A stretch of DNA of 64,000 nucleotides from a bacterium (GCA_037138355.1 JBAXIL010000001.1:23758-87757); one strand, 5' to 3'; numbered from the stretch's first letter, positions 2,080-17,295 are shown. Numbers and translations: made by a program. Notes: generated by a model from the letters alone, not told the origin.

Positions 2080-2391
2080 CCAAAGAATAAAATCAGAGTT
2101 TACAGAAATCTCTTGGATCTATCAAAAGGAGAAACTTTAAAACTCCGGTATGTTTTAATTCAAGGTGGAAAAATTAAGCTTAGTGTTTATACACTGACAG
2201 GGGCATTTGTGATTGAACTTGTGAATGCAATTGTTGCTGGTAATATTGATGAAATCAATCCTTATGAAAGTGCGGATATAATCTGGGACGGAAAGAATCA
2301 AGCCGGAGAAAAAGTGGCTTCGGGCGTTTACCTACTATCACTTGAAGCACCTAATTTAAGGGTGGTTGAAAAAGTGGCTGTAGTTAAGTAG
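1..2391 (+). CDS. Large FN3-repeat cell-surface protein, 5'-truncated by the window edge, with a C-terminal FlgD-Ig / T9SS-CTD-like sorting domain
   Basis: Frame 1 is open from nt 1 (TRYNYQVRTTDVNFNVSAPVEFSVLIPGPPAAP precedes the listed GTG at 100), so the ORF continues upstream. About 7 recurring modules fit the pattern P.NL...L.W....(T/S)GY.IYRS.S......Y.D....YYY.V.A...GES. The last ~100 aa (VYRNLLDLSKGETLKLRYVL..KIKLSVYTLTGAFVIELVN..IIWDGKNQAGEKVASGVYLLSLEA....EKVAVVK) fit the FlgD-Ig / Por secretion tail pattern. Confidence 0.75.
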   Translation, partial: TRYNYQVRTTDVNFNVSAPVEFSVLIPGPPAAPVNIQASTNALAATITWNYNSSDESVTSYSVYESGSFKGTTGNNHYADSSVTLGGAYLYTVKANNSYGLSVMSQAVAVTITPSAPQNLIVENATLPGTLYINWTPINISENITGYNIYRATSPETFDYSIPILVTATTYDDSDVGVGLRYYYCVAGFSSMEGARSLTASAVPELTAINVNGLTATAFTNYAFLNWDNADIEYGVTGYKIYKSTSPYSELFSYEKYVTASAGVSSSAYVTGLSSLNIPYYLKVTALNFYGEGDTINASYIDITMTAATTPERPISVTATSQGDATIYLSWSTALSPASVTSYNVYRSISAGIYNFTTPIARVTGTNYTDHVTSTAGTVYYYEIKSQGSGLESLSSAEISGRSYYRPYPVNNLTGSYVNGNNWILWSKPDSDGTDDYAVKHYRIYRSTVSSFSETLLAGAEAITEEKYIDSDINTSVSIYYYKVKTYDTNGIEDDDTSTLQVNMSAIQQPPATLVALAGDSKVSLIWRMVTPLYYNIYRREDSNPSYGPPVAYNVSFSLKDYTDTNLINGILYHYIIKAVNSSGEGPASVEVSAERYLAITLPLDPTVTAQIVNKKDILLNWNAAIGASLAGYYVMRSNDGGGTYAQLTITTQTNYTDASTQWNQVYYYLIKTVDVDGHIDAIYTPVKIVLPQPKNKIRVYRNLLDLSKGETLKLRYVLIQGGKIKLSVYTLTGAFVIELVNAIVAGNIDEINPYESADIIWDGKNQAGEKVASGVYLLSLEAPNLRVVEKVAVVK

Positions 2392-4255: not shown

Positions 4256-5164
4256 ATGTATATTATTGTAACTGGAGCCACTGGTACTGGCAAGTCTGCT
4301 GTGGCTGTTGAACTGGCAAAGAAAATTAATGGTGAAATAATATCTGCTGATTCCATGCAGGTGTATGTGGGTATGGATATAGGCACATATAAGATATCCA
4401 AGGAAGACACGCAAGGGATAAGCCATCATTTATTAGATGTGGTAAATCCTTGGGAAAAGTTCTCAGTAGCACAGTTTAAAATTTTGGCGGAAAAGGCATT
4501 AAATCACATAAAAGGAAAAGGCAAAATACCTATAGTTGTTGGTGGTACGGGCTTGTTTATAAACTCGCTTACGCGTGGGATATTGACTTCTAAAGAGCCT
4601 TCTAATGAACTAAAAAGTCTTTTGAGAGTTGAACTTGAGGAAAATGGTCTTGAGGCACTTGTCAATTTATTGAATAAAAAAGACCCCGAGGCAGCATCGT
4701 TAATTGATATTAATAATAGTCGGAGAGTACTTAGGGCACTTGAACTTATAGAAACTAATAAAATGAGTTTAAGCGAATTAAGAAAAACAACAGAGAAAAA
4801 CCGGTATAAAGATGATTATAAATTATTTGTTTTGGAAACTGGCAGGGAATATATGTATTCAAGACTTGATAAAAGAGTTGATGAAATGATAAAAAGCGGA
4901 TTGTTAAATGAAGTAAAAGTCCTTATGAGTAAAATCAATGCATTAAGCATGACAAGTATGCAAGCCATAGGATATAAGGAAACCACGGAGTTTTTAAATG
5001 GAAATATAAATATGAATCAAATGATAATAAATATAAAACAGGCCACTCGAAATTATGCAAAAAGACAGCTTACTTGGTTCAAAAAATATGAGGAAGCAAT
5101 AAGAATTAATATGGAACGCATAACCCCTGTAGAAGCAGCAAAGGAAATTCAGGATAAGTTGTAG
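4256..5164 (+). CDS. miaA: tRNA dimethylallyltransferase MiaA
   Basis: P-loop GATGTGKSAVAVELA, then EIISADSMQVYVGMDIGTYK and ..VGGTGLFINSL. Canonical position after mutL. Confidence 0.95.
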   Translation: MYIIVTGATGTGKSAVAVELAKKINGEIISADSMQVYVGMDIGTYKISKEDTQGISHHLLDVVNPWEKFSVAQFKILAEKALNHIKGKGKIPIVVGGTGLFINSLTRGILTSKEPSNELKSLLRVELEENGLEALVNLLNKKDPEAASLIDINNSRRVLRALELIETNKMSLSELRKTTEKNRYKDDYKLFVLETGREYMYSRLDKRVDEMIKSGLLNEVKVLMSKINALSMTSMQAIGYKETTEFLNGNINMNQMIINIKQATRNYAKRQLTWFKKYEEAIRINMERITPVEAAKEIQDKL

Positions 5165-5297
5165 TACTATATGAGTATGGAATAATCCAATAAAGGCAGT
5201 ACTGAGTGCAATATTTAGCATTATTCAGTTAATTAATTAGCATAGTTCGATTCATTAATAGAGTCAATCACAGAACAAAACAGTGAAATCGGGTTGC

Positions 5298-5340
5298 AGA
5301 TAAGACATATTGAACTTATCTTATTTGATTGTTTTTTATT
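5298..5340 (+). terminator. Possible weak intrinsic terminator after miaA
   Basis: AGATAAG (5298-5304) pairs with CTTATCT (5315-5321), followed by an interrupted T-rich tract (tatttgattgttttttatt). The stem is AT-rich, so support is weak. Confidence 0.3.
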
Positions 5341-5375
5341 GGTTTTATCCATATTTAAAAGCTATTAAAATGTAA

Positions 5376-5404
5376 TTGACATAAAGAATTTATTATGTTA
5401 AATT
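5376..5404 (+). promoter_or_regulatory. Candidate sigma-70 promoter with extended -10
   Basis: TTGACA (5376-5381), 17-nt spacer, TGT-TAAATT (5396-5404). Lies in the 250-nt gap upstream of the first barrel gene. AT-rich background means chance matches are common. Confidence 0.45.
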
Positions 5405-5477
5405 TACTCACTTGCAAAGAATCTATTGTTGCAACAGGTTTTTATATATTGGAACATTATATGCATCGGAGGATACT

Positions 5478-7589
5478 GTGCGTAAGAGCATATTTCTGTT
5501 TTTGTCTTTATTTATTTTGGTTTTAGGTGCTAATTCTTTAATTTTTTCTGACGATTATTCTGATACTCGTCTTATTACTTGGGAAAAAGTTAATGAGCCT
5601 TTCTTTAATAAATGGAATCCTTATGGAGTAGGCGCGAGAGCAATGGGAATGGGCGAAGCTTTTTCTGCAATTGCGGACGATGCTTCAGCCGTATATTACA
5701 ATCCTGCTGGATTGGCACAAATGGATCACAATGAATTATCATGGACGGGTGGAAGTGATTATAGCTCTGCTCCATACACAAATTTCGCAACATTTGATAT
5801 GGCTTTAGGTGGACAATATTTTGCTTTGTCTTATTTAAAACTTTATCATCCTATTGGAAGATATCCAGACAAAATAGTAATTCCAGCACCAGGTGTTGGA
5901 CCTGTTCCAGGTAATTTATATTCGACACAACCTTTATTTATTCCAAGTGGACTATACGAAAATTGGTTTGGTTCTTTACAAGCATCACAACAAGATTTAC
6001 TTGCTAAGATGTACAGAGCATATATCAATCTTCCTTTTCAAGAAAATCAGGTAGCTTTAACTTATGCCACATCTCTTACAAGTGACAAAAGTTTTGATTT
6101 TGGAATAAATGTAAAATATCAATATACTGATGCAGCGGCAGCAAAGGTTCTTGGTTCAGCATATGATGCTTGGGCTTGGTCAATTGATTTAGGTTTTCTT
6201 TATAAAATCCGTTTGATTGAATTCCTTAAAGATTTTAACATAGGTATCATGCTTCGCGATATTTCTGGTAGGGCAAAATATTTTAATACAGGTGTAGAAA
6301 AACCTTTGTATTTCACATCCACAGTGGCTCTTTCTATGAGAACAACAGAATTAATAGAGAATGAAATAACAAGTTTGTCTGTTGACTGGGACGCTGTTAA
6401 TGATGCTGGCGTTTTTGTTAATGAAGCAAACAGATTGAAATTTGGTTTTGAACAGTGGTTTATTGATGGTCATTTTGCTGTACGCAGCGGACTTGTGTTT
6501 CCTATGAACCAGCAGCCATGGAGAATGTCTTTTGGAGTTTCCGCAAGATATTTGCTTGGCATAGATTACGCTTATGTACGGGGAATACCTTTTGATGCTA
6601 AAGCAGAAAATGAAGGTGATAGTCACTGGTTGACTCTATACTGGATGTGGGGAAAAGTTGCAAGAAAAATGCCTATGCCAGATGTTTTTGCAGCAGTAGA
6701 GCCAATATCATTCTCCCCAAGAAATGGCGAAACCGCAATTTTTAAAGTTAATGCGACATCAAAGGCAGGTATAGATAGATGGGCTTTGAGTATTCTTGAT
6801 AAAAATAATAATTTAGTAAAAACTTATGTTGATATAGGAAATCCACCATCACAGATAGTGTGGAATGGTTCAGATAATAAATATCTACTTTTACCAGATG
6901 GTGAATATACTTTTATATTTGAAGCTACTGATAAGCTTGGCAGTACTTCATCAACACCTGTGCAGACAGTTAAAATTTACACTCCTGTTATAGAAGGAGT
7001 AAGTCCTGAAGCGTTAAATAAATTAAGACAATTATTAAATCAATCAAAAGACAGAGATGTTGCAGAAGATATTGGAGAATTGAATTCAGCGAAAAAAGGA
7101 GTAGATGATCTTAAAAAAGCAAAGGCAAAACCTACTCCTCAAGAACCCCCATTACCAGCAGCGGGTTATAATACGCTTCCGGTAATTGCGGGAACACCAG
7201 GAGTATTAGGAAATGGATTAACTGGAACGGCATCCCCAATAGATATTGTAGGATTTCCAAATATAGATTCTGGCGCGATTAGGTCGGCATATATATCCAC
7301 AGGCGCAGATGGCGATAGACAATTTAATATGGATTATGTAACTACTAATACTTTACCTAAGTATGTAATTAAAGAAATGAGTCTTATGGTAAAATCAATT
7401 GCAGAAAGTTTAGGATATTCCGTAGATAGGATAGGAATCAACGCCATTTATGGCGGTAATAATAATATGAACTTATCAGTTCCGATTGCGCAGGCGGAAA
7501 ACTACCAGAGAGGTACAATCTCAGTAGACCAAATGTTAAGGGGCGCAAGTATTAATCTGAACGGTGAGATCATATATCCCAATTTTTAG
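5478..7589 (+). CDS. PorV/PorQ-like (FadL-type) outer-membrane beta-barrel protein with an internal FlgD-Ig-like domain and a C-terminal region of unknown function
   Basis: Start moved to in-frame GTG 5478, preceded by GGAGGA (5468-5473); this gives the signal peptide VRKSIFLFLSLFILVLGANSLIFS. N-terminal motif GVGARAMGMGEAFSAIADDASAVYYNPAGLAQ. Barrel-end motif IDYAYV...GDSHWLTLYW. FlgD-Ig-like segment at ~6681-6990 (ISFSPRNGETAIF...IVWNGSDNKYLLLPDGEYTFIFEATDKLG). Confidence 0.6.
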   Translation: MRKSIFLFLSLFILVLGANSLIFSDDYSDTRLITWEKVNEPFFNKWNPYGVGARAMGMGEAFSAIADDASAVYYNPAGLAQMDHNELSWTGGSDYSSAPYTNFATFDMALGGQYFALSYLKLYHPIGRYPDKIVIPAPGVGPVPGNLYSTQPLFIPSGLYENWFGSLQASQQDLLAKMYRAYINLPFQENQVALTYATSLTSDKSFDFGINVKYQYTDAAAAKVLGSAYDAWAWSIDLGFLYKIRLIEFLKDFNIGIMLRDISGRAKYFNTGVEKPLYFTSTVALSMRTTELIENEITSLSVDWDAVNDAGVFVNEANRLKFGFEQWFIDGHFAVRSGLVFPMNQQPWRMSFGVSARYLLGIDYAYVRGIPFDAKAENEGDSHWLTLYWMWGKVARKMPMPDVFAAVEPISFSPRNGETAIFKVNATSKAGIDRWALSILDKNNNLVKTYVDIGNPPSQIVWNGSDNKYLLLPDGEYTFIFEATDKLGSTSSTPVQTVKIYTPVIEGVSPEALNKLRQLLNQSKDRDVAEDIGELNSAKKGVDDLKKAKAKPTPQEPPLPAAGYNTLPVIAGTPGVLGNGLTGTASPIDIVGFPNIDSGAIRSAYISTGADGDRQFNMDYVTTNTLPKYVIKEMSLMVKSIAESLGYSVDRIGINAIYGGNNNMNLSVPIAQAENYQRGTISVDQMLRGASINLNGEIIYPNF

Positions 7590-7598
7590 GAGCGAGCC

Positions 7599-9218
7599 AT
7601 GAAGAAAAAGTCATTTGTATTGTCTTTGCTTTTTGTGTTAATTGCAACATTTGCTTTTGGTGGAGCTTTTGATAAGGGTGGAGTTTTAGGTATAGGTGGT
7701 AGAGCTACTGGCATGGGAAATGCCTTTGGTGCTGTCGCTGATGACGGAAGTGCTGTATACTGGAATGCGGCGGGATTGACACAAATGAACAGGCCCGAAT
7801 TATATATATTTTTAGGACCTTTATTAAACGGAAAAGAGTGGTATTCTTTCTTATCATTTGGTTCGCCTTTCTTTGAGGATACAGCTTGGCAGTTATCTGT
7901 AATGTCTCTTATTCATAGTGATACGAGTAATACAAAAGAGTTCACTGTAGTTGGGAGCTTTGCTTCAAACCTCAATCTTGAAAGAACTTTTTCTGTGGGT
8001 ATTAATATAAAATATCTTAATTATATTTCCACAGCTCAATTCACGACAACTGATGGCGTTAATCTTCAGGGAATTGCACATGGTTTAGGACTTGACCTTG
8101 GAGTTCTATATCAAATACCACTTCCACAATTGGGTAAGAAACTTAACTTTGGATTATTCATACAGGATATAGATACTAATATTGATTGGTCAAATGGAAC
8201 AAGCCAAGAACAAATTCCTACAGTGTTTAAAATTGCATCGGCATATTATCTTGATGACAATCTTGTTATTACAGCTGATTATGACTTTTTTAAGGATTTA
8301 AATATAAGTGGTATTCCACTCTCAACTCCAATATATGATTCTGCTTCTGGTGTCACAATCACAGCTTTAGTGCCACAGGAAGATAGACTTCATGTTGGTT
8401 TGGAAAGTTGGTTTTTTAAAAGACATTTAGGACTTCGTGGTGGTTATACAACTTTTGCAACAATGCCAGGAAGGTTTACAGGCGGCGTATCTTACCGTGA
8501 AGATGCATGGCAAGTTGATTATGCCTATATAGGTCACGCTGAGCATCTTGGAGATTCACACAGATTGTCTGTTGCTTTAAGATTTGGCCAGCCAAAAGAA
8601 CAGATAAGAGCGATTACTGTAGTAGCTCCTCCAAAAACATTGGAAGCATATGCAGCAAATGCTTCAGCAAACTTGACATGGGAAATAAATACAGATCCAA
8701 ATATAACTGGTTATGCAGTATACATGAGCAAATCACCAGGAGCAAGATACATACCAATAGCTAAAAGAATAAAAGAAAATTATGTAACCATAGATGGACT
8801 TCAGAACGGTACCAGATATTATTTTGTAGTTGCTTCTATTAACAATACTTATCCTTCGGTTGAGAGTGCTTATTCAAACGAAACTTCAGCTGTCCCAGCA
8901 CCTGTTGTTCCTGGGGTTCCTGAAATATTCCCAATTTCTAAAGTCGCTAAAGTACAAAATAATGGAGTTGTAGATATTGCTTGGGGTAATATGCCAAATG
9001 ATAGAATGGCTGGATACAATATCTATATAACAGAAACACCGGGAACTGGTTATAATAAATTAAATGCAGTTCCAGTAAAAGATGTTCATTATTTAGTGAG
9101 TGGCCTGGAAGTTGGAAAGAAGTATTATTTTGTAATGACATCTGTTACAAATGATACACCTCCAGTAGAATCGAAATTTACTAAAGAGTTTAGCTATATA
9201 GCAAAACCTGGAAAATAG
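7599..9218 (+). CDS. PorV/PorQ-like outer-membrane beta-barrel protein (paralog of the previous gene) with two C-terminal FN3 modules
   Basis: Signal peptide MKKKSFVLSLLFVLIATFAFG. Motif GIGGRATGMGNAFGAVADDGSAVYWNAAGLTQ. Barrel end VDYAYIGHAEHLGDSHRLSVALRF. Two FN3 modules follow (ITGYAVYMSKSPGARY...YYFVVASIN and MAGYNIYITETPGTGY...YYFVMTSV), of the same type as in the 1..2391 protein. Confidence 0.6.
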   Translation: MKKKSFVLSLLFVLIATFAFGGAFDKGGVLGIGGRATGMGNAFGAVADDGSAVYWNAAGLTQMNRPELYIFLGPLLNGKEWYSFLSFGSPFFEDTAWQLSVMSLIHSDTSNTKEFTVVGSFASNLNLERTFSVGINIKYLNYISTAQFTTTDGVNLQGIAHGLGLDLGVLYQIPLPQLGKKLNFGLFIQDIDTNIDWSNGTSQEQIPTVFKIASAYYLDDNLVITADYDFFKDLNISGIPLSTPIYDSASGVTITALVPQEDRLHVGLESWFFKRHLGLRGGYTTFATMPGRFTGGVSYREDAWQVDYAYIGHAEHLGDSHRLSVALRFGQPKEQIRAITVVAPPKTLEAYAANASANLTWEINTDPNITGYAVYMSKSPGARYIPIAKRIKENYVTIDGLQNGTRYYFVVASINNTYPSVESAYSNETSAVPAPVVPGVPEIFPISKVAKVQNNGVVDIAWGNMPNDRMAGYNIYITETPGTGYNKLNAVPVKDVHYLVSGLEVGKKYYFVMTSVTNDTPPVESKFTKEFSYIAKPGK

Positions 9219-9265
9219 TTTTTGGAGAAATGAGAAATATTCATAAGAACAAAAGGAGCAAATAA

Positions 9266-10063
9266 ATGATAAGCGGTTTATACACAGCAGCATCGGGCTT
9301 GATCGCCCAGACACAGCAACAGGATGTTATAGCAAACAACCTGGCCAATGTGAATACCACAGGTTACAAAAAAGATACCGCTTTATATGTTCCGTTTCCA
9401 ACTGTTTTTCTGAATAGAATTAATGATGATAAAACTCCAGTTCCAGGAGGTATGGCAGATGCTATGCCGCCTATAGGTTATATGGGTAGAGGAGTGGAAT
9501 TGCGTGTGGATGGAGTAAGACCGCAAACAACAGAAGAAGGTTCTTATGTTGAGACCACCAATAATCTTGATTTGTCTATTAAAGGAAATGGTATGTTTGT
9601 TGTCATGACACCTAATGGAGAGCGTTACACAAGAAATGGTAATTTCACGCTCGATTCAAATGGCGTATTAGTAACACAACAAGGGAATCCAGTTATGGGG
9701 CAAGCAGGAAAAATTTCATTAAATAATAACAATATACATATTGATGAGGGTGGCAGGGTATTTGAAGATAAATCAGAGATTGATACTTTGCGTATTGCCA
9801 TGTTTTCGAAAGATGATAATTTGAGGAAGGAAGGCGATAGCCTTTTTTATAAACTTGATGGGGTACCTTTAACTGAAGATCATTATGTGGACCAAGTTCA
9901 AGTTAAGCAGGGTTATTTAGAAACTTCCAATGTAAATGTAGTAAAGGAAATGGTAGAAATGATTACTGCATACAGAGCATACGAGGCTTCTGCAAAAGCA
10001 ATTCAGTCACAAGATCAGACACTCGGTAAAGCAGTAAATGATTTAGGAACTATTTCAATATAA
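9266..10063 (+). CDS. flgF: Flagellar basal-body rod protein FlgF
   Basis: Rod-family N-terminus MISGLYTAASGLIAQTQQQDVIANNLANVNTTGYKKD. C-terminal GYLETSNVNVVKEMVEMITAYRAYEA. Positioned just before flgG. Confidence 0.85.
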   Translation: MISGLYTAASGLIAQTQQQDVIANNLANVNTTGYKKDTALYVPFPTVFLNRINDDKTPVPGGMADAMPPIGYMGRGVELRVDGVRPQTTEEGSYVETTNNLDLSIKGNGMFVVMTPNGERYTRNGNFTLDSNGVLVTQQGNPVMGQAGKISLNNNNIHIDEGGRVFEDKSEIDTLRIAMFSKDDNLRKEGDSLFYKLDGVPLTEDHYVDQVQVKQGYLETSNVNVVKEMVEMITAYRAYEASAKAIQSQDQTLGKAVNDLGTISI

Positions 10064-10084
10064 AATTTTTTAGGAGGCAATAAA

Positions 10085-10876
10085 ATGTTAAGATCACTCT
10101 GGACGGCAGCAACAGGTATGGCGGCACAGCAGTATAATATAGATACTATTTCAAATAACCTTGCAAACGTGAATACTACTGCTTTTAAAAAGAGTCGTGC
10201 AGAGTTTCAGGATCTTCTTTATCAGACTATTAGACCTGCAGGTATGACTAATAATATGGGTACGCAGTATCCTACGCCAATTGAAATAGGACATGGTACA
10301 AAGATATCATCTACACAGAAATCATTTATACAAGGTAATCTTGTGCAGACGGATAATCCGCTTGACCTTTCTATTCAAGGTGCTGGATTTTTTATGATTC
10401 AGAATCCAAATGGAGAAGTGGCTTATACCAGAGATGGTTCTTTTAAAGTTGATGGCTCTGGAAATTTAGTTACTTCAAATGGATATTCAATGATGCCGGA
10501 AGTTGCATTGCCTACTGATACAAGTGCTGTTGTAATTAGAGAAAATGGCGATATAGTAGTAACAGTTTCTGGACAGACAGAGGGACAGACAATTGGACAA
10601 ATAAAACTTGCAAACTTTATTAATCCTGCTGGATTGGAAAGTCTTGGAGGAAATCTTTATAAAGAAACAGAAGCATCAGGTGGACCTGTTGAAGGAGTTC
10701 CAGGAATTAGTGGTTTTGGTGCACTTACACAGGGTCAGCTTGAGGCTTCAAATGTAAAAGTTGTTGAAGAAATGGTAAACTTGATTACTTCACAGCGTGC
10801 TTATGAGATAAATGCAAAAGCAATTACTACTTCAGATCAGATGTTAAGCACCGCTAATAACTTAAAGAGCAGTTAA
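10085..10876 (+). CDS. flgG: Flagellar distal rod protein FlgG
   Basis: MLRSLWTAATGMAAQQYNIDTISNNLANVNTTAFKKSRAEFQDLLYQ near the N-terminus and LEASNVKVVEEMVNLITSQRAYEINAK near the C-terminus. Confidence 0.9.
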   Translation: MLRSLWTAATGMAAQQYNIDTISNNLANVNTTAFKKSRAEFQDLLYQTIRPAGMTNNMGTQYPTPIEIGHGTKISSTQKSFIQGNLVQTDNPLDLSIQGAGFFMIQNPNGEVAYTRDGSFKVDGSGNLVTSNGYSMMPEVALPTDTSAVVIRENGDIVVTVSGQTEGQTIGQIKLANFINPAGLESLGGNLYKETEASGGPVEGVPGISGFGALTQGQLEASNVKVVEEMVNLITSQRAYEINAKAITTSDQMLSTANNLKSS

Positions 10877-10889
10877 TAGATAATCATAA

Positions 10890-11840
10890 ATGAAATTTAA
10901 AATATTTGCTGTTTTGTTTTTTGTCTTTCTGGCAGTTGGACTTGTTGCGGAAGGACCAGAAGTTGTTCTTAAAAGCAACGACATATATATTGCAAGTGAT
11001 AAAATATATCTTGGAGATATAGTTGACTTTTCAAGCATAGCACCTAAAGATTTGGAAAAGTTGCAGACTCTTTATGTTAAAAGAGCAGCAGTTCCAGGTT
11101 TTAAAGTGGTCGTTGAAAAGGAAACAGTGCAAAATATAGTTGCAAAGGCATTTCCTTATATAGCGGTATCAGGTTTGAATTATGTAAATGTTTACACATC
11201 TAAGGGATCGGTAAGCAGAGATGAAGTTGAAAATAAAGCAAAAGAATATGTATTAAAAAATATGCCTTGGCAGTTTGAGGCGGCTGAAGTTGCAGTTAAG
11301 CATGTTAAAGGTTCTGTAGCAGTAATAGATGGAATTGTTCTTTTAAAAGTTAAAGAAGATGGAAAGTTTAATTACAAGGGTAATCTTATAGTACCTGTAG
11401 AAATAGATGTGGATGGAAAGTTCTATAAGATAGAACCAGTAGCCATGCTTATTAAAGTTAATGCTCCTTGTGCTGTGGCCCAAAATAATATTAGCAGACA
11501 CTCTGGTTTGTTGATGGACAATATAATTATGGAAACGAAAGATATAACTTTTCTACCTGAAGCTATCATAACGGACATAGCATTTTTTAATAATAAGGTA
11601 CCACTTAGAAACATAATGAAAGGTACCATAGTTACTTCTGATATGTTTGAGAGTTTACCTTTGTTTAGAAGAGGTTCATTGGTTGATGTGGTTGTAAAGA
11701 TTGGTACAATACAAGTGAAGTCTGAAGGTTCGGCACTTTCTGATGGAAGAGAAGGTGATTTAGTGAAGGTGAAGTTAGTTACTGGTAAAACAGTAGAGGG
11801 TAAAGCGGACGCAACTGGTCGAGTAATAATAGTAAAATAA
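10890..11840 (+). CDS. flgA: Flagellar P-ring assembly chaperone FlgA (long form)
   Basis: Signal peptide. SAF-like C-terminal part (RRGSLVDVVVKIGTIQVKSEGSALSDGREGDLVKVKLVTGKTVEGKADATGRVII). Located between flgG and flgH. Confidence 0.8.
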   Translation: MKFKIFAVLFFVFLAVGLVAEGPEVVLKSNDIYIASDKIYLGDIVDFSSIAPKDLEKLQTLYVKRAAVPGFKVVVEKETVQNIVAKAFPYIAVSGLNYVNVYTSKGSVSRDEVENKAKEYVLKNMPWQFEAAEVAVKHVKGSVAVIDGIVLLKVKEDGKFNYKGNLIVPVEIDVDGKFYKIEPVAMLIKVNAPCAVAQNNISRHSGLLMDNIIMETKDITFLPEAIITDIAFFNNKVPLRNIMKGTIVTSDMFESLPLFRRGSLVDVVVKIGTIQVKSEGSALSDGREGDLVKVKLVTGKTVEGKADATGRVIIVK

Positions 11841-11865
11841 AAATATATATTAAGGAGATAATCTG

Positions 11866-12486
11866 ATGAATAAGAAAGGATTTCTGACGGCTTTTGCCGC
11901 GATTTTCCTTATTGCTTTTTATTCGGGAGTTCTTTTTGCGGATGAAATAATGAAAAATGAGGCTGATATTGAGTCTGTTTATACCGATCACAAAGCATAT
12001 AAAGTTGGAGATATAGTAACTATAATAATTGTTGAATCTACTCAAGGTTCTCAAAGTGCTTCACTTTCTACTTCTAAACAGCAGAAGCTTCAGGCTGGAA
12101 TGGGAACTGCCACATCGTGGGGCGGAGGCTTAAGCACCAGTCTACCTGTTTCTTCATGGGGAGCAGGCGGCGCGGAATATCAAGATGGTGGTGGAAAGTC
12201 AATAAGATCAGGCTCTTTGCTGGCAAAACTTTCTGCAAGAGTTGAGAAGGTACTCACAAATGGAAATCTTGTTATTAAAGGTACTAAAATAATACTTGTA
12301 AATGATGATAAACAGAATCTTATGATTAAGGGTGTAATAAGAGCAGAAGATATAAGTTCTGATAATACTATAATGTCTACTAATGTTGCTGATGCTACAA
12401 TTGAATACGAAGGAAATGGTCCAATTGGTGAGAAAACTTCACCGGGAATTTTAACCAGGATACTTGATTGGCTCGGCATATTCTAA
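11866..12486 (+). CDS. flgH: Flagellar L-ring protein FlgH
   Basis: YTDHKAYKVGDIVTIIIVESTQGSQSA..., LVIKGTKIILVNDDKQNLMIKGVIRAEDISSDNTIMSTNVADATIEYEG. Signal peptide present, but no Cys anywhere in the protein. Confidence 0.85.
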   Translation: MNKKGFLTAFAAIFLIAFYSGVLFADEIMKNEADIESVYTDHKAYKVGDIVTIIIVESTQGSQSASLSTSKQQKLQAGMGTATSWGGGLSTSLPVSSWGAGGAEYQDGGGKSIRSGSLLAKLSARVEKVLTNGNLVIKGTKIILVNDDKQNLMIKGVIRAEDISSDNTIMSTNVADATIEYEGNGPIGEKTSPGILTRILDWLGIF

Positions 12487-12499
12487 AGAGGTGAAATTA

Positions 12500-13618
12500 A
12501 TGAGAAAATATTTTAGAATTTTAATTACTGTCTTAATAATTATGGCAATTGCTGCTACAACATTGCTTGCCGTGGAATTAAGAGTTAGAAATGTTGCCAG
12601 ATTTAAAGGCGTTCGCGATAATCAATTGACAGGTTTTGGACTTGTTGTAGGTTTAAAAGGAACTGGCGATAGAAATACTACTGTTTTTACAACTCAGGCA
12701 ATCGTTAATATGTTAAAGAGATTTGGAATAGCCGATGCTGCAACACAAATCAAAGTAAGAAATGTAGCAGCGGTCATGGTCACAGCAAACTTGCCAGCAT
12801 TCGCAAAAAAAGGAGACAAGATAGATGTAGTAGTTTCCTCAATGGGTGATGCCAAAAGTTTGGATGGTGGAGTATTGCTTGTAGCCACTATGAAGGGTCT
12901 TGATGATAATATATATGTGGCTGCACAAGGACCTATCTCTACGGGAGAAGGCGGAGCAACTATGGGTTCTATTGCTGCAATGTCAAATAAAATGACAACA
13001 GGTCGTGTCCCAAATGGTGGCTTGGTAGAAAAAGAAGTACCAGTTACTTTTGTCGATGATAAAAATAATATGTTCCTAATTTTAAATATTCCTGATTTTA
13101 CTTCTTCAGATAGAATAACTTATGCAATTAATTCTCAGTTTTGGGGAAGTATTGCAAGTGCGGTTGATGCGAGTACGGTTAAAATTAGTGTTCCATATGA
13201 TTTTCAAAATAATTTTGTTGAATTTGCAGCTGCAGTCGAAGGGCTTTATGTGGAAACAGAAGAAGTAGCAAATAAAGTTGTAATTAATGAGAGAACTGGA
13301 ACTGTAGTTATGGGTGCGGATGTTACCATAGACACTTGTGCAGTATCTCATGGAAATTATAATGTGAATATTGCTGTAACAAAACAGATTTCCCAACCAA
13401 ATCCTTTCGTACCAGGTGCTTCTGCTATGGTGTATGAAGATTCAAATATTAAAATGGAAGGTGCAGGAAATCAGTTAGTGACACTGCCGCAGGGAGCTAA
13501 TGTACAGGACTTAGTAAATGCTTTAAATGTTCTCGGAGCCACACCACAGGATATTATTAATATAATTCAGGCGATAAAAGCGGCGAATGCACTACACGCT
13601 GAAATTTCTATAATGTAA
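12500..13618 (+). CDS. flgI: Flagellar P-ring protein FlgI
   Basis: Start moved to ATG 12500 (RBS aaagaggtg), giving the signal peptide MRKYFRILITVLIIMAIAATTLLA. Motifs VRNVARFKGVRDNQLTGFGLVVGLKGTGD and C-terminal LVNALNVLGATPQDIINIIQAIKAANALHAEI. Confidence 0.9.
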   Translation: MRKYFRILITVLIIMAIAATTLLAVELRVRNVARFKGVRDNQLTGFGLVVGLKGTGDRNTTVFTTQAIVNMLKRFGIADAATQIKVRNVAAVMVTANLPAFAKKGDKIDVVVSSMGDAKSLDGGVLLVATMKGLDDNIYVAAQGPISTGEGGATMGSIAAMSNKMTTGRVPNGGLVEKEVPVTFVDDKNNMFLILNIPDFTSSDRITYAINSQFWGSIASAVDASTVKISVPYDFQNNFVEFAAAVEGLYVETEEVANKVVINERTGTVVMGADVTIDTCAVSHGNYNVNIAVTKQISQPNPFVPGASAMVYEDSNIKMEGAGNQLVTLPQGANVQDLVNALNVLGATPQDIINIIQAIKAANALHAEISIM

Positions 13619-13688
13619 TAGCTTTAACAGATTCAAGTTAATATTCTAAGAGAAAATATTTCAAAATGATTGAGACCAAGGAGAACAA

Positions 13689-14105
13689 ATGCCAGATTTT
13701 TTAGGAAGCTCAGAGATTATCGCAAGGACGGATATGATGGGCCTTACAAATAGGTTGCAAGAAGCAACTATACAGGCAAATAAAACTGATGGAGTTAAAG
13801 ATGCTAAATATCTCGCTCAAATAAAAAATGTATCTCGCGAGTTTGAATCAATCTTTCTCGGATACATGTTAAAACAAATGCGTAAAACAGTACCTGAAGA
13901 TGCACTTATGGGTAATAGCCCAGCAAAAGATATATTTATTGGTATGCAAGATGATGAACTATCAAAAGAGCTTTCAAAGGCTGGTGGCATAGGTTTGGCG
14001 GCAGTTATTTATTCTCAGCTTGCCAGTCAGGGAGCAGCAGCAAAGCGTCCGCATGTAGCTCCAGTTATGCCAATACCAATTAATAAGACAGACATAACAA
14101 TATAG
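13689..14105 (+). CDS. flgJ: Rod-binding protein (FlgJ N-terminal domain only, no muramidase domain)
   Basis: REFESIFLGYMLKQMRKT rod-binding motif. 138 aa. Positioned after flgI. Confidence 0.75.
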   Translation: MPDFLGSSEIIARTDMMGLTNRLQEATIQANKTDGVKDAKYLAQIKNVSREFESIFLGYMLKQMRKTVPEDALMGNSPAKDIFIGMQDDELSKELSKAGGIGLAAVIYSQLASQGAAAKRPHVAPVMPIPINKTDITI

Positions 14106-14121
14106 CTATATTTATAAGGGC

Positions 14122-14148
14122 AAAAGCCGGCTTTAAGCCGGCTTTTTT
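14122..14148 (+). terminator. Intrinsic terminator after flgJ
   Basis: aaaaGCCGGCt / aGCCGGCtttttt hairpin followed by a T6 run. Confidence 0.8.
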
Positions 14149-14197
14149 AATTAATAGATATATAGTTTGTAGTTACTAAAATAAATTAAAATAAAGC

Positions 14198-14224
14198 TAA
14201 AGTTATTCGTATTATGTCCGATAT
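14198..14224 (+). promoter_or_regulatory. Sigma-28 (FliA/SigD)-type promoter for flgM-flgN-flgK
   Basis: TAAA (14198-14201), exactly 15 nt, then TCCGATAT (14217-14224), against the consensus TAAA-N15-GCCGATAA/T. Located 43 nt upstream of the flgM start. Confidence 0.65.
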
Positions 14225-14266
14225 ATATATAAAGAAGGTAAATAGTTTCAAAAGGAGGCGAAATCA

Positions 14267-14566
14267 ATGATACCAATAAACAATTCAGGAAACATCAATC
14301 CTATCTTGCCACAAAATCTTACAGATTTAGCTACAAGTAAAAGTAAAGAGCAAGCTCCAGTTTTAAACACAGCAAATACTCCAGCAGATAAGGTTGAGAT
14401 TTCAAAGCAGGCAGCAATCATCAGTAAGGCAATTGTTGCTTTAAATGAACTACCAGCAGTGAGAACAAACCTTATTGCAAACGCTACGCAGGAAAGAGTT
14501 GTACAGGACAAACAGATTCCTGCAGGATTGCTTGCTCAAAAAATGCTTTTTGAAGACATAAAGTAA
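14267..14566 (+). CDS. flgM: Anti-sigma-28 factor FlgM (probable)
   Basis: 99 aa, no signal peptide, probably disordered N-terminus. Sits behind the sigma-28 promoter and directly before the flgN-like gene and flgK. Strong RBS aaaggagg. Confidence 0.6.
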   Translation: MIPINNSGNINPILPQNLTDLATSKSKEQAPVLNTANTPADKVEISKQAAIISKAIVALNELPAVRTNLIANATQERVVQDKQIPAGLLAQKMLFEDIK

Positions 14567-14575
14567 AAGGAATAT

Positions 14576-15085
14576 ATGGATAAACAACTTAAAACAAGCT
14601 TCATTGTGATAGTTAAAAATCAGATTGAGCTATATAATAAACTCAAAATACTTTCAATTGCTGAACAGAAAACTTTGACGACGAAAGAAGCTCGTGGACT
14701 TGAGGATATAGTAAAGCAAAAAGAAATACTCATTAATGCAATAAAAAAGCAAGAAGATGAGAAGCTCGTTGTATTTGTTAAAATGGCTGAGAGTTTTGGT
14801 TTGAAATATACTCCAGAATTGAAACTTCAGGATTTGCTTTCTAAGGCAGGAAGTGAAGACTCAGTAGAGATTGATAAGGAAACCACTAAACTAATAATCT
14901 TGATTAAGGATATTATTACTTTAAATGTAAATAACTCCAGATTAATGAAAAATTATCTTGATTTTATGAAGTTCACTGCAGAGCTAAAAGCAAAAATTGA
15001 AAACCCTGTACAACCAATATACAATCAGGATGGGATAGTTAAGAACGCAGCAGATAAAAAAAGTAAAATAGACCAACAGATATAA
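14576..15085 (+). CDS. flgN: FlgN-family flagellar export chaperone (probable)
   Basis: 169 aa helical protein with the N-terminal pattern IELYNKLKILSIAEQKTL....L..IV.QKE.L. Canonical flgM-flgN-flgK position. Confidence 0.55.
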   Translation: MDKQLKTSFIVIVKNQIELYNKLKILSIAEQKTLTTKEARGLEDIVKQKEILINAIKKQEDEKLVVFVKMAESFGLKYTPELKLQDLLSKAGSEDSVEIDKETTKLIILIKDIITLNVNNSRLMKNYLDFMKFTAELKAKIENPVQPIYNQDGIVKNAADKKSKIDQQI

Positions 15086-15104
15086 AAACTGAAGGGAGCA
15101 TACT

Positions 15105-17249
15105 ATGTTAAATATTTCAATGGGTTTAGAAACAGCACTGAGGTCGCTACTTGCAAATACTGCGGCACTAAATACGGCAAATACTAATGTGGCTAATGCA
15201 AACAATGCTGATTATTCGAAACAGGTAGCTAATATGTCAGCCACATCGGCCTTAACGATTGCAGGACAGGCTGGACAGATAGGAACAGGCACGCTTCTGA
15301 GCAGTGTTCAAAGAATAAGAGATATTTATCTTGATAGGCAGATAAGAACTGAGTGGATGAATTATGGAAAAGCTGAAATTACAGATAGAACTTATCAAAA
15401 TATAATGGCTTTTATTCCTGAATTATCTGGAGTTCCTGCAAATGGAATTGGAACAAAAATAGATCAATTTTTTACTGCCTGGACAAATGTTTCAACTCAG
15501 GCAGCGCTTGCAGCCGCAGGTTCAGCTAATACCTTGAGTGATGCTCTTAATACGGTTTATCAGCTTGCTGCAAGTTTAGCAGCTCAGCTTAATACTCAAT
15601 CAAATGATTTAACAAATATACAGCTTGATTTAAATACGGAATTAGAATCAACTGTGCAAAGTGTTAATGCTCAGCTTCAAAATATTTATCAACTAAATAA
15701 ATCTATCGTTTATCTTATGGGACAAGGACAGCAGCCTAATGATTTGCTTGATAAGCGTGATGCTGCTATGGCAAAACTGGCTGAACTAATTAATTTTGAT
15801 ACGGCAAATAAAACGGATGGTTCTGTTACAATAATGTTAGGCGGAAGAACTCTTGTAAGTGGAGCAGATAGCTATAATCTATTAACTACTATGACTTCAG
15901 GAGTTATTACAAAGACTTCGCCTTTGACTTTTGGTGTAAGAGATTCAAGGTTTGAATCTGTCGGTATAACAAACAGTAACGGTTCAAATGCTGTTCAGCT
16001 CGATAATTCTATTTTTACTGGTGGAAAGATTGCGGGTATATTATATTCGCGAGATAATATTGTTCATGATTACAGTTCTCAGCTTGATTCGGTAGCCAAT
16101 ACCCTAATTACTATGGTAAATAACATATACAATGCTACCAAAAAATCTGGCACTACTGACAATGTTGACTTCTTTAGTGGCACTATGGCATCAAATATAG
16201 CTGTAAATCAGACAATTCAAAGTGGAAGTGATATATCTTATACTATGTTTAAAGTGGGTGATATAGCAAAAATACTTGGACAATTAAGTAATAAATTGGT
16301 TTCTACTCGGGTAGTGTCAGAGACACTAAGCTTAACCTCTGCTTCAGCATTATCAGCTTTACCACTTCCAGCAGGAACTTCAGGGGAATTGATTATTAAT
16401 GACACACATATAGCAGTAACTTCAACTATGACTATGGCTGACCTCATAAATGCAATAAACACGCATGCAACCGATTTTTCAGCGGTTTATAATGATGTGA
16501 CTAAAACATTTTTTATGGTTTCTTCTAAACCATTAGTAATACAAGAGGTTGGTTTGGGCGGCAATTTTCTTCGTAACATGAAATTGATTGAGGAACAAAT
16601 TAGTACTGCTTCAATTGTCTATAATGCTGATATGGCAAGTCAAACATTAGACCTAAACGCAAGTTGGATATCCCAAAAATATACTTTTGATATTCCTGCT
16701 ACAACAAGTGGTACAATTAACATAAGTTTGGGAGGTCAGACCTATTCAATTGATTGGCTCAATAAGAATTCAATCTTGTTTACCAATTGGTCAATTTATG
16801 CACTTGATGGAAACTCCTCAGTCCCGCCTGGAATAAGTCAATATAACTATTTTGCTGATGAGAAGTTCCATTTCGGTACAAGGGTTGGCAACGCTGGAGT
16901 CGCAAATGAAATTACCCCTTTTACAATGTATGATAAGTCAGGAAATCTTACACAGACGATGAAAATCATTGGAACTGTTAGCTTTAATCAATATTATAAT
17001 TCCATTTCTAATGCTATATTTAGTGACGCAAGTAGCGCGGCTACTATGGTGGCTTCTGATAAAAGCACTTTGGATCAACTTCAAGCAATGCAGGATACTA
17101 TTACCAAGGTTGATGTAAATGCAGAACTGGCAAAAGCTAAATTATATCAGCGTGCCTATGATGCCTCAGTTAAGTTTATGTCGGTAATTGATGAAATGTT
17201 AAATATGCTAATCAATAAAACTGGAACTTCATCAACATCTATTAGCTAA
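15105..17249 (+). CDS. flgK: Flagellar hook-associated protein 1 FlgK (long, 714 aa)
   Basis: N-terminus GLETALRSLLANTAALNTANTNVANANNADYSKQ. C-terminal LAKAKLYQRAYDASVKFMSVIDEMLNMLINK. Confidence 0.85.
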   Translation: MLNISMGLETALRSLLANTAALNTANTNVANANNADYSKQVANMSATSALTIAGQAGQIGTGTLLSSVQRIRDIYLDRQIRTEWMNYGKAEITDRTYQNIMAFIPELSGVPANGIGTKIDQFFTAWTNVSTQAALAAAGSANTLSDALNTVYQLAASLAAQLNTQSNDLTNIQLDLNTELESTVQSVNAQLQNIYQLNKSIVYLMGQGQQPNDLLDKRDAAMAKLAELINFDTANKTDGSVTIMLGGRTLVSGADSYNLLTTMTSGVITKTSPLTFGVRDSRFESVGITNSNGSNAVQLDNSIFTGGKIAGILYSRDNIVHDYSSQLDSVANTLITMVNNIYNATKKSGTTDNVDFFSGTMASNIAVNQTIQSGSDISYTMFKVGDIAKILGQLSNKLVSTRVVSETLSLTSASALSALPLPAGTSGELIINDTHIAVTSTMTMADLINAINTHATDFSAVYNDVTKTFFMVSSKPLVIQEVGLGGNFLRNMKLIEEQISTASIVYNADMASQTLDLNASWISQKYTFDIPATTSGTINISLGGQTYSIDWLNKNSILFTNWSIYALDGNSSVPPGISQYNYFADEKFHFGTRVGNAGVANEITPFTMYDKSGNLTQTMKIIGTVSFNQYYNSISNAIFSDASSAATMVASDKSTLDQLQAMQDTITKVDVNAELAKAKLYQRAYDASVKFMSVIDEMLNMLINKTGTSSTSIS

Positions 17250-17262
17250 TTTAATAATTTTC

Positions 17263-17295
17263 AAAAAGGTCGGGTTAATAGCCCGACCTTTTTTT
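17263..17295 (+). terminator. Intrinsic terminator after flgK
   Basis: GGTCGGG (17268-17274) pairs with CCCGACC (17282-17288), followed by a T7 run. Confidence 0.85.

What the first reader, a model, noticed from the sequence alone, without database searches (positions are those of the whole stretch)
5376..14148. Pair of PorV/PorQ-like outer-membrane barrels with FlgD-Ig and FN3 modules appears to be the first two cistrons of the flagellar rod / L-ring / P-ring operon
Seen in sequence: two adjacent paralogs (5478-7589 and 7599-9218) share two motifs. The N-terminal motif is G.G.RA.GMG.AF.A.ADD.SAVY.N.AGL and the barrel-closing motif is DYAY....GDSH.L. The first carries an internal FlgD-Ig-like domain (IVWNGSDNKYLLLPDGEYTFIFEATDKLG) and a ~200-aa tail I cannot place. 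The second carries two FN3 modules. They are followed on the same strand by flgF, flgG, flgA, flgH, flgI and flgJ, with gaps of 9, 47, 21, 13, 25, 13 and 70 nt. I see no hairpin plus T-tract between the candidate promoter at 5376 and the terminator at 14122. I also see no promoter-like element in the 47-nt gap before flgF. Established knowledge: PorV-type barrels are FadL-like outer-membrane proteins. Several lineages add lineage-specific outer-membrane or periplasmic structures to the flagellar motor (for example FlgO/FlgP/FlgT and PflA/PflB disks and rings). Inference: these barrels may be an undescribed outer-membrane accessory of the flagellar basal body, such as a collar, disk or sheath anchor near the L-ring. 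Alternatively they may form a surface-display module co-regulated with motility. I know of no described flagellar operon headed by PorV-like barrels, but this needs a search.
Basis: partly seen in the sequence, partly recalled or inferred. Interest (0 to 1): 0.75.

Follow-up and report, generated by a model that had tools for sequence, protein, structure and literature searches.

The report
PorV-like barrel pair heading flagellar operon
Two outer-membrane barrel proteins with Ig/FN3 tails that probably face the periplasm lie directly before, and are probably co-transcribed with, the flagellar rod and ring genes in about 45 uncultured Goldbacteria/FCPU426 species, so they are probably an undescribed envelope part of the flagellar motor.

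Summary
Two paralogous Sec-exported PorV/FadL-like barrels sit at 5478-7589 (barrel, FlgD-Ig, helix, linker, orphan tail domain) and 7599-9218 (barrel, two FN3). They lie directly upstream of flgF-G-A-H-I-J, with the stated gaps, a promoter at 5376 and a terminator at 14122.

New evidence:
- The order B1-B2-flgF-flgG-(flgA)-flgH-flgI-flgJ is kept in about 45 species-level MAGs of four deep clades (B1 falls to 25% identity), while the upstream neighbours change.
- The B2-flgF gap is usually -4 to 35 nt.
- In the FCPU426 core the pair sits inside a large flagellar cluster (flhA ... fliA ... flhB'-B1-B2-flgF ...).
- The promoter is invariant in 10 Goldbacteria loci, and no conserved promoter precedes flgF.
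- dN/dS is 0.01-0.08, the same range as rod and ring genes.
- The Ig/FN3 modules are conserved as well as the barrels.
- FlgH lacks a lipobox throughout the group.

One closed genome (L049) has the pair away from flg genes, and more distant paralogues are non-flagellar.

Best reading (about 0.6): a lineage-specific outer-membrane accessory of the basal body, with periplasmic modules near the L/P rings. I found no published description. No transcript or structural data exist, and no cultivated host is known to me.

The parts
5376..5404 (+). Sigma-70-type promoter: TTGACA, 17 nt, TG-extended TAAATT, with an A-tract upstream
   Evidence: Consensus scan. TTGACA and TGnTAAAnT are invariant in 10 Goldbacteria-type loci whose upstream sequence is otherwise unalignable.
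5405..5477 (+). 5' leader with conserved TTGCAAC...TTTTTAYATATTGnAA motif and GGAGG ribosome-binding site (5468-5472)
   Evidence: Alignment A4. No significant RNA structure and no Rfam match. Function unknown.
5478..7589 (+). B1, 703 aa. Signal peptide, then a PorV/FadL-like barrel of about 14 strands (aa 40-392). Then FlgD-Ig domain (aa 400-503, nt 6675-6986), 40-residue helix (aa 508-549), Pro-rich disordered linker (aa 550-592) and an orphan alpha/beta tail domain (aa 593-703, nt 7254-7586).
   Evidence: The tail has no Pfam or PDB relative. Among 1.84 billion representatives it occurs only at the C-terminus of B1 orthologues.
7599..9218 (+). B2, 539 aa. Signal peptide, then a PorV-like barrel (aa 22-330, ending in ...LRF). 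Then FN3-1 (aa 345-432, nt 8631-8894) and FN3-2 (aa 453-537, nt 8955-9209).
9266..10063 (+). flgF (proximal/distal rod protein)
   Evidence: TIGR02490 187.7 bits, above cut-off; Pfam rod domains
10085..10876 (+). flgG (distal rod)
   Evidence: TIGR02488 364 bits, above cut-off
10890..11840 (+). flgA (P-ring assembly chaperone)
   Evidence: PF13144, TIGR03170
11866..12486 (+). flgH (L-ring). Signal-peptidase-I type signal, no lipobox cysteine.
   Evidence: PF02107 E=6e-47. N-termini in all related loci lack a lipobox Cys.
12500..13618 (+). flgI (P-ring)
   Evidence: PF02119 E=3e-120
13689..14105 (+). flgJ, rod-binding domain only, no muramidase domain
   Evidence: PF10135; TIGR02541 partial match
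14122..14152 (+). Intrinsic terminator that ends the B1-flgJ unit
   Evidence: 11-bp GC-rich stem, -16.9 kcal/mol, z=-3.1, followed by UUUUUU
14198..14223 (+). Sigma-28 (FliA)-type promoter TAAA-N15-tCCGATA. It starts the next unit: flgM-like 14267-14566, flgN 14576-15085, flgK 15105-17249, terminator 17263-17293.
   Evidence: Only match in the 64-kb window; FlgN Pfam hit; terminator; same gene order in relatives

Best explanation
B1 and B2 are lineage-specific envelope components of the flagellar basal body in the Goldbacteria/FCPU426 group. Both are exported by Sec and inserted in the outer membrane as FadL/PorV-type barrels of about 14 strands. With an even strand number and a periplasmic N-terminal hatch, their C-terminal modules hang into the periplasm. 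For B2 these are two FN3 domains. For B1 they are an Ig domain, a helix of about 6 nm, a flexible Pro-rich linker and an orphan alpha/beta domain. The pair is transcribed from the conserved promoter at 5376 as the first two cistrons of the rod/LP-ring operon, so it is made when the distal rod, P-ring and L-ring are built. I infer that the barrels sit around or next to the L-ring, which here is made of a FlgH without a lipid anchor. I infer that they use the conserved Ig/FN3 modules to contact the LP-ring or its surroundings, as an outer-membrane collar or anchor analogous to the Vibrio H-ring or the Campylobacter basal disk. Shown: the fold family, the conserved gene linkage, the promoter and terminator layout, and purifying selection. 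Inferred: co-transcription, periplasmic orientation, physical association with the L/P rings, and the stabilising role.
For: 1. Synteny. B1-B2-flgF-flgG-(flgA)-flgH-flgI-flgJ is collinear in every sufficiently long locus of about 45 species-representative MAGs except one. It persists down to 35% (B2) and 22-29% (B1) identity.
2. The upstream neighbours differ between clades: mutL-miaA; icd-pyk; flhA-flhF-flhG-fliA-FapA-flhB'. The linkage is therefore to the flg genes and not a frozen accident.
3. In about 18 FCPU426 species and in L090/L087, flagellar genes flank the pair on both sides.
4. The B2-flgF gap is -4 to 35 nt in about 40 of 47 loci. B1-B2 are 9-13 nt apart or overlap by 11 nt.
5. 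The promoter before B1 is invariant in 10 loci. No conserved promoter lies in the 160 nt before flgF, only a ribosome-binding site. There is no hairpin until 14122. The following flgMNK unit has its own sigma-28 promoter.
6. dN/dS is 0.03-0.08 for B1 and 0.01-0.07 for B2, like FlgG/H/I and tighter than FlgA/J/K.
7. The Ig domain of B1 and FN3-1 of B2 are at least as conserved as the barrels across clades, which fits binding to a conserved partner better than a surface adhesin role.
8. The best structural matches are PorV, then FadL. FadL-type barrels are known structural subunits of outer-membrane machines: PorV/PorQ in T9SS and BamG in Bacteroidota BAM (PMC12578637). C-terminal extensions of FadL-like barrels are held to be periplasmic (PMC8407342).
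9. FlgH in all these loci lacks the lipobox Cys.
10. Orthologues were found only in this flagellated group. Goldbacteria carry flagellar genes, whereas the sister Firestonebacteria and Elusimicrobia do not (PMC7031533), and neither sister group appeared among the hits.
Against: There is no transcript, localisation or structural data; everything rests on genomic association and models of moderate confidence (pLDDT 71 and 77). In the closed genome behind L049, an intact B1-B2 pair lies between metK/ahcY and the riboflavin operon with no flg gene within 10 kb. I could not show that this genome is flagellated. In clade IV the B2-flgF gap is 134-540 nt, which leaves room for independent promoters. 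The closest non-orthologous relatives are not flagellar. P0154 lies next to a giant Big_1 protein and TPR-ExbBD-TonB, and L004 and L006 lie next to FlgD_ig proteins. The ancestral role of the family is therefore something else. FlgD_ig and FN3 are generic domains. Whether the lack of FlgH lipidation is unusual was not surveyed outside this group.
Confidence: 0.6

Rival explanations
1. Assembly factor rather than stable part. B1/B2 act transiently in the outer membrane to help the non-lipidated FlgH ring insert, or to let the rod penetrate. This would parallel FlgA for the P-ring or BamG within BAM, and the pair would not be part of the finished motor.
For: flgA, a ring-assembly chaperone, is in the same operon. 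FlgH lacks a lipid anchor in the whole group. BamG shows that a FadL-like barrel can serve an outer-membrane insertion machine. The synteny evidence fits this reading equally well.
Against: The large, well-conserved Ig/FN3 modules, the long helix and the tail domain look more like scaffold parts than like a chaperone. B2 is conserved as tightly as the structural ring proteins. Nothing distinguishes this rival from the best explanation computationally.
Confidence: 0.15
2. Non-flagellar outer-membrane module that merely shares the operon. The pair could be a FadL-like uptake channel for hydrophobic compounds. Or it could be a PorV-like anchor or shuttle for surface proteins carrying Ig-like C-terminal domains, co-regulated with motility.
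For: Family relatives work this way or sit in such contexts: T9SS PorV, P0154 beside a 1795-aa Big_1 protein and ExbBD-TonB, and L004/L006 beside FlgD_ig proteins. L049 keeps the pair without adjacent flg genes. An FN3-repeat protein with a FlgD_ig-like C-terminus lies 3 kb upstream in the window and in some relatives.
Against: Adjacency is kept through four deep clades while every other neighbour changes, with overlapping or near-overlapping reading frames. The pair is embedded between flhB' and flgF in a flagellar supercluster. Scores are far below the equivalog cut-offs for PorV, PorQ and PorV2. No T9SS gene is in the window. The upstream FN3 protein is not kept next to the pair in L001, L002 or L003. 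The modules are fused to the periplasmic end of the barrel and evolve slowly.
Confidence: 0.15
3. Anchor for an envelope structure associated with the filament rather than the motor, such as a membranous sheath base, or a bushing for an unusual outer membrane.
For: Outer-membrane location and flagellar linkage. The outer-membrane O-ring known from sheathed Vibrio flagella is stated from my own knowledge and was not checked here.
Against: There is no evidence for sheathed flagella in these uncultured phyla. Nothing in the loci points to sheath biogenesis.
Confidence: 0.05

Closest known systems
T9SS PorV / PorQ (Bacteroidota; PDB 6h3i_F, 8gl6_F)
   Same: Same fold family: a 14-stranded FadL-type barrel with the N-terminal GxGxRxxGMGxA...ADDxSAxxxNPAGL hatch motif. 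PorV is the best Foldseek hit of both models and the only non-FN3 PDB sequence hit of the B2 profile. All orthologues hit NF033709 PorV_fam. PorV and PorQ are also structural partners in a large envelope machine.
   Different: Scores are far below the equivalog cut-offs: PorV 46.6/23.2 against 250, PorQ 28.7 against 220, PorV2 52-57 against 325. B1/B2 carry C-terminal Ig/FN3/tail modules that PorV and PorQ lack. They are linked to flg genes and not to T9SS genes. They occur in phyla for which I know of no T9SS.
Vibrio H-ring (FlgT, FlgP, FlgO), T-ring (MotX, MotY) and Campylobacter basal disk/cage (FlgP, FlgQ, PflA, PflB)
   Same: These are lineage-specific proteins associated with the outer membrane and periplasm. 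They surround the LP-ring and are encoded with or near flagellar genes (10.64898/2025.12.04.692373; the Campylobacter part is from my own knowledge). This is the functional analogy I propose.
   Different: There is no sequence relationship: Pfam and NCBIfam gave no FlgO, FlgP, FlgT, PflA, PflB or MotY hit for B1 or B2. Those systems anchor through lipoproteins and soluble rings, whereas here the anchor would be two integral beta-barrels.
BamG, the FadL-like subunit of the Bacteroidota BAM complex
   Same: A FadL-type 14-stranded barrel recruited as a fixed structural subunit of an outer-membrane machine and not as a transporter (PMC12578637). A BAM complex chain (9n2d_B) is among the Foldseek hits of B1.
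   Different: Different machine. BamG has no Ig/FN3 extension, and there is no specific sequence similarity.
Treponema pallidum FadL-like proteins (UPF0164; TP0548, TP0859, TP0865)
   Same: Weak UPF0164 Pfam hits on the N-terminal motif. Three of the five have a presumptively periplasmic C-terminal extension (PMC8407342), which is the same barrel-plus-periplasmic-module design.
   Different: Their extensions are alpha-helical, not Ig/FN3. They are proposed nutrient importers, and no flagellar linkage is reported.

Membership tests
PorV/PorQ family (NCBIfam NF033709, subfamily model) | Whole-protein score at or above the curated cut-off of 90 bits | tested here: inconclusive
   Window B2 scores 88.9 bits and B1 66.3 bits, both just or clearly below cut-off. 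All 30 B2 and all 25 B1 orthologues match, with best E-values of 5e-31 and 1.7e-30. NCBI itself names several B2 orthologues 'PorV/PorQ family protein'. These are borderline, divergent members.
PorV/PorQ family | FadL-type barrel of about 14 strands with an N-terminal hatch | tested here: met
   In the AlphaFold models, 14 long strands are counted from DSSP for B1, and B2 is consistent with 14. The top Foldseek hits are PorV 6h3i_F (E=8e-12, TM 0.64 on the target) and 8gl6_F, followed by FadL and TodX. Model coordinates were not inspected.
T9SS PorV, PorQ or PorV2 (equivalogs NF033710, NF033711, NF052325) | Score above the equivalog cut-off (250, 220, 325 bits) | tested here: not met
   Best scores are 46.6, 28.7 and 57.2 bits.
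T9SS PorV, PorQ or PorV2 | Genomic or functional association with T9SS core genes and CTD cargo | tested here: not met
   No T9SS gene appears in the window or among the named neighbours in the related loci. The rest of the genomes could not be scanned.
FadL/TodX transporters (Pfam PF03349 Toluene_X) | Pfam gathering score (29.7 bits) | tested here: not met
   B1 scores 19.6 bits on the N-terminal motif only, and B2 has no hit. Structural similarity to FadL is present.
Flagellar basal-body accessory proteins (functional class: H-ring, T-ring, basal disk, collar) | Conserved genomic linkage with basal-body genes across lineages | tested here: met
   About 45 species in four clades keep the order, with one exception, L049.
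Flagellar basal-body accessory proteins | Homology to a known accessory family (FlgO, FlgP, FlgQ, FlgT, MotX, MotY, PflA, PflB, FlbB and others) | tested here: not met
   No such Pfam or NCBIfam hit at E<=0.01. The B1 profile has no PDB sequence hit. The tail domain is an orphan.
Flagellar basal-body accessory proteins | Physical presence in the motor, or a motility phenotype on deletion | not testable with these tools
   This needs cryo-ET, proteomics or genetics. I know of no cultivated member.
Single operon B1-flgJ | One transcript from about 5405 to about 14150 | tested here: inconclusive
   Supported indirectly by the conserved promoter, the lack of a conserved internal promoter, the absence of a hairpin before 14122 and the tight gaps. 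No RNA data are available.

The most novel reading that the evidence does not exclude
B1 and B2 assemble into a ring of integral beta-barrels around an L-ring built from FlgH that has no lipid anchor. Their Ig/FN3 modules, and the tethered tail domain of B1, reach down to the P-ring or peptidoglycan. This would be the first flagellar motor whose outer-membrane bushing is held by dedicated beta-barrel proteins. It would also be a third independent recruitment of the FadL/PorV fold as a structural subunit of an envelope machine, after T9SS and Bacteroidota BAM.
Probability: 0.35. Interest if true: 0.75.

Novelty: new variant of a known kind. Interest (0 to 1): 0.62.

Why it matters
Flagellar motors differ between lineages mainly in the extra rings and disks built around the conserved core. 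Every described outer-membrane accessory is a lipoprotein or a soluble ring protein. A conserved pair of integral PorV-type barrels with periplasmic Ig/FN3 arms, wired into the rod/LP-ring operon of two candidate phyla, would add a new building principle. It would extend the known uses of the FadL/PorV fold beyond transport, T9SS and BAM. It also gives a concrete annotation, 'flagellum-associated PorV-like outer-membrane proteins', to about 100 protein clusters now labelled hypothetical or PorV/PorQ family. It names two targets for cryo-ET of environmental or enriched Goldbacteria. The absence of a FlgH lipid anchor across the whole group suggests a testable reason for the recruitment.

Tried and rejected
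1. TTG 5412 as the B1 start. Rejected: conservation and the GGAGG site point to GTG 5478.

2. Homology for the B1 tail domain. I tried Pfam at E<=10, a PDB profile, and a profile search of 1.84 billion representatives. Only B1 orthologues came back. The two large repeat proteins (P0224, P0226) are CBM_X2 and CARDB noise.

3. Foldseek with whole models cannot place the tail domain, because the top hits are all barrels.

4. Whether the L049 genome is flagellated. A FlgI profile search listed only the best 120 of 7826 hits, and none was on the 2,876,006-bp chromosome. This is inconclusive. The exact-sequence look-up of my L049 ORFs failed because of start-codon choice; P0213 then proved that L049 B1 is in the collection.

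5. A relative of L049 (P0214). Its contigs are too short (1.8 kb) to show what follows B2.

6. Internal promoter before flgF. None is conserved. The consensus scan gives many weak sigma-70-like sites everywhere (72 found against 57 expected), so single-sequence hits were ignored.

7. A sigma-54 promoter motif is absent from the window.

8. An Rfam search of 5000-17500 gave only sub-threshold hits at terminators. The conserved leader has no significant fold.

9. T9SS membership was rejected on equivalog scores and context.

10. Literature searches for PorV, PorV-like or FadL-like together with flagella found nothing relevant.
Full report
**What is in the sequence**

The region holds eight same-strand genes.
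- B1, 5478-7589
- B2, 7599-9218
- flgF, 9266-10063
- flgG, 10085-10876
- flgA, 10890-11840
- flgH, 11866-12486
- flgI, 12500-13618
- a short flgJ with the rod-binding domain only, 13689-14105

Pfam and NCBIfam confirm all six flg assignments.

B1 and B2 are paralogues over their barrels: BLASTP E=1e-21, 25% identity.

The long ORF starting at TTG 5412 is not the gene. Conservation in ten relatives begins at GGAGG-N5-GTG, so the start is GTG 5478.

**What the two proteins are**

*Family scores.* NCBIfam puts both next to the PorV/PorQ subfamily model NF033709: 88.9 and 66.3 bits against a cut-off of 90. Both are far below the equivalog cut-offs for T9SS PorV, PorQ and PorV2. All 30 B2 and all 25 B1 orthologues hit NF033709.

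*Models.* I built AlphaFold models from orthologue alignments, with pLDDT 71 for B1 and 77 for B2.
- B1: a signal peptide, a barrel with 14 long strands, an Ig domain (FlgD_ig, Pfam E=2.5e-7), a 40-residue helix, a disordered Pro-rich linker of about 45 residues, and a compact alpha/beta domain of about 110 residues.
- B2: a signal peptide, a barrel consistent with 14 strands, and two FN3 domains.

*Structural matches.* The best Foldseek match for both models is T9SS PorV (E=1e-8 and 8e-12), followed by FadL and TodX. The B2 profile also finds PorV by sequence in the PDB (E=2.9e-4).

*The B1 tail.* It has no relative in Pfam or the PDB. In a profile search of 1.84 billion representative proteins it occurs only at the C-terminus of B1 orthologues. 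The two large repeat proteins in that list are noise.

*Topology.* Each barrel ends in an aromatic residue (...LRF in B2...WMW in B1) and FadL-type barrels have 14 strands. By standard outer-membrane-protein topology the C-terminal modules should therefore be periplasmic. The same conclusion was drawn for the C-terminal extensions of T. pallidum FadL-like proteins (PMC8407342). This is an inference, because I could not inspect the coordinates.

**Is the link to the flagellar genes real?**

This was the decisive test, and it is positive.
- B2 has about 88 full-length orthologue clusters of the same architecture, at 36-99% identity. B1 has about 50.
- Six look-ups of individual orthologues at 77, 50, 47, 44, 38 and 37% identity all showed a B1 of about 700 aa (split into two ORFs in L007), then B2, then flgF-G-A-H-I-J.
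- A scan of one genome per species returned about 50 loci with full-length B2. A tblastn survey showed the same collinear order in every locus long enough to tell, with one exception.
- The loci fall into five deep clades, and the upstream neighbours differ between them. These are mutL-miaA and others in the Goldbacteria-type clade (which includes the window), icd-pyk in a second clade, and a large flagellar cluster in the FCPU426 core. There the order is flhA-flhF-flhG-(PilZ)-x-fliA-FapA-x-x-x-flhB'-B1-B2-flgF.... Two further divergent lineages show flhB'-B1-B2.
- The linkage therefore survives while everything else around it changes. In one clade the pair has flagellar genes on both sides.
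- The B2-flgF distance is -4 to 35 nt in about 40 of 47 loci. B1-B2 are 9-13 nt apart or overlap by 11 nt.

**Transcription signals**

It is followed by a conserved leader motif and the ribosome-binding site.

The last 160 nt before flgF show only codon-pattern conservation and a ribosome-binding site, with no promoter-like block. There is no stable hairpin in the B1/B2 or B2/flgF gaps. The hairpin at 14122-14146 is a good terminator (-16.9 kcal/mol, z=-3.1, U-tract), although the consensus scan missed it.

The only sigma-28-type motif in the 64-kb window lies at 14198-14223. It sits just before a flgM-like gene, flgN and flgK, which end at a strong terminator at 17263.

The layout therefore supports a B1-to-flgJ unit driven by a housekeeping-type promoter, followed by a late FliA-dependent unit. 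No RNA data were available, so co-transcription remains an inference.

**Selection**

Between close species pairs, dN/dS is 0.03-0.08 for B1 and 0.01-0.07 for B2. That is the range of FlgG, FlgH and FlgI, and it is tighter than FlgA, FlgJ and FlgK.

Across clades, the Ig domain of B1 and FN3-1 of B2 are at least as conserved as the barrels. The helix, the linkers and a barrel insert are free to vary. This pattern suits modules that bind a conserved partner. It does not suit surface adhesins.

**Evidence that cuts the other way**
- One closed 2.88-Mb MAG chromosome (L049, on a deep lone branch) has intact B1-B2 between metK/ahcY and the riboflavin operon, with no flg gene within 10 kb. I could not establish whether that genome is flagellated. 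A FlgI profile search listed only the best 120 of 7826 hits, and none was on that chromosome.
- Clade IV has gaps of 134-540 nt before flgF.
- More distant family members are not flagellar. A Goldbacteria paralogue (barrel plus FlgD_ig) lies between a 1795-aa Big_1 protein and TPR-ExbB-ExbD-TonB. Two others lie after FlgD_ig proteins. Barrel-only homologues in Bacillota MAGs have no flg neighbours.
- The family's older role is therefore something else, and the flagellar pair looks like a recruitment.

**Mechanism**

The best-supported reading is that B1 and B2 are outer-membrane components of the basal body of this group, made together with the distal rod and LP-ring. Their periplasmic Ig/FN3 arms would contact the ring region.

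One observation may explain why. FlgH in every one of these loci has a signal-peptidase-I type signal and no lipobox cysteine. In Salmonella the L-ring protein is lipid-anchored (my own knowledge). Barrel partners could supply the missing membrane anchorage.

There are precedents for FadL-type barrels as fixed subunits of outer-membrane machines: PorV and PorQ in T9SS, and BamG in the Bacteroidota BAM complex (PMC12578637).

The functional analogues are the Vibrio H and T rings and the Campylobacter disk. There is no homology to any of their proteins.

The rivals are a transient L-ring insertion factor, a co-regulated but non-flagellar transport or surface-anchoring module, and a sheath-base anchor. 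None can be excluded computationally.

**Novelty**

Full-text searches for PorV, PorV-like or FadL-like together with flagellar terms, and for Goldbacteria with flagella, found no description of such a link. Public annotations of the orthologues read 'hypothetical protein', 'PorV/PorQ family protein' or 'fibronectin type III domain-containing protein'.

I rate it a new variant of a known kind: a lineage-specific flagellar envelope accessory built from an unexpected protein family. The association is well supported and the mechanism is not yet shown.

Noticed in passing
window 11866-11960, and the flgH N-termini of loci L002-L057: FlgH (L-ring protein) has a signal-peptidase-I type signal (...A|D-D/E/S) and no lipobox cysteine in the window and in essentially all related loci. 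Salmonella FlgH is a lipoprotein (my own knowledge). This may be connected with the barrel pair.
   Followed up: partly
window 5405-5477: A conserved leader motif, TTGCAAC...TTTTTAYATATTGnAA, lies between the -10 element and the ribosome-binding site of B1. It is invariant in 10 Goldbacteria loci. It has no significant RNA fold and no Rfam match. It could be a regulator-binding site or a translational control site.
   Followed up: partly
window 14198-14566: The only sigma-28-type promoter motif in the 64-kb window (TAAA-N15-tCCGATA) lies 44 nt before a 99-aa ORF. That ORF has no Pfam hit, but it aligns with genes flagged as weak FlgM matches in relatives. It is probably the anti-sigma factor FlgM.
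   Followed up: partly
L003 16546-16989, L001 16638-16991 and most related loci; absent from window 14106-14266: A small double CxxC zinc-ribbon protein lies between flgJ and flgM in most relatives. It resembles Bacillus YvyF-type 'flagellar operon protein' (from memory). It is missing in the window and in its closest relative L008.
   Followed up: partly
L049 7865-11503 (OZ218778.1, 2.88-Mb closed MAG chromosome): An intact B1-B2 pair lies on a deep branch, between metK/ahcY and the riboflavin operon, with no flagellar gene within 10 kb. Whether this genome has flagella is unknown.
   Followed up: partly
L086 2501-14919: The closest non-flagellar paralogue (PorV-like barrel plus FlgD_ig, 418 aa) lies between a 1795-aa Big_1 surface protein and a 1024-aa TPR protein followed by ExbB-ExbD-ExbD-TonB. 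This may be an energised outer-membrane system for surface proteins in Goldbacteria.
   Followed up: no
window 100-2391: A protein of at least 763 aa made of FN3-like repeats with a FlgD_ig-like C-terminal domain (weak hit) lies upstream of mutL-miaA. The same arrangement occurs in several Goldbacteria loci (L009, L021, L034). It may run off the window start.
   Followed up: no
window 13689-14105: FlgJ is only 138 aa, with the rod-binding domain and no muramidase domain. The peptidoglycan-lytic partner must be encoded elsewhere.
   Followed up: no
L001/L010 14311-14924: flgH is split into two ORFs (116 and 81 aa) on a 1.7-Mb contig. It is either a frameshift error of the assembly or a pseudogene.
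   Followed up: no
L008 1532-2365: A further PorV-like barrel gene (23% identity to B2) lies about 5.5 kb upstream of B1 in the window's closest relative. It has no counterpart at that position in the window.
   Followed up: no
window 47649-56636: Glycoside hydrolase genes are present: a GH2-like gene and a 1021-aa GH3 plus GH5 cellulase fusion. This fits the cellulolytic lifestyle reported for Goldbacteria (PMC7031533).
   Followed up: no
record titles of loci L009, L011, L014, L029, L036, L051: MAGs that carry this locus are labelled 'Spirochaetia', 'Methylomirabilis' or 'Proteobacteria' in their records. Their B1/B2 and flg genes nest within the Goldbacteria/FCPU426 clades, so these are likely taxonomic mislabels.
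   Followed up: partly
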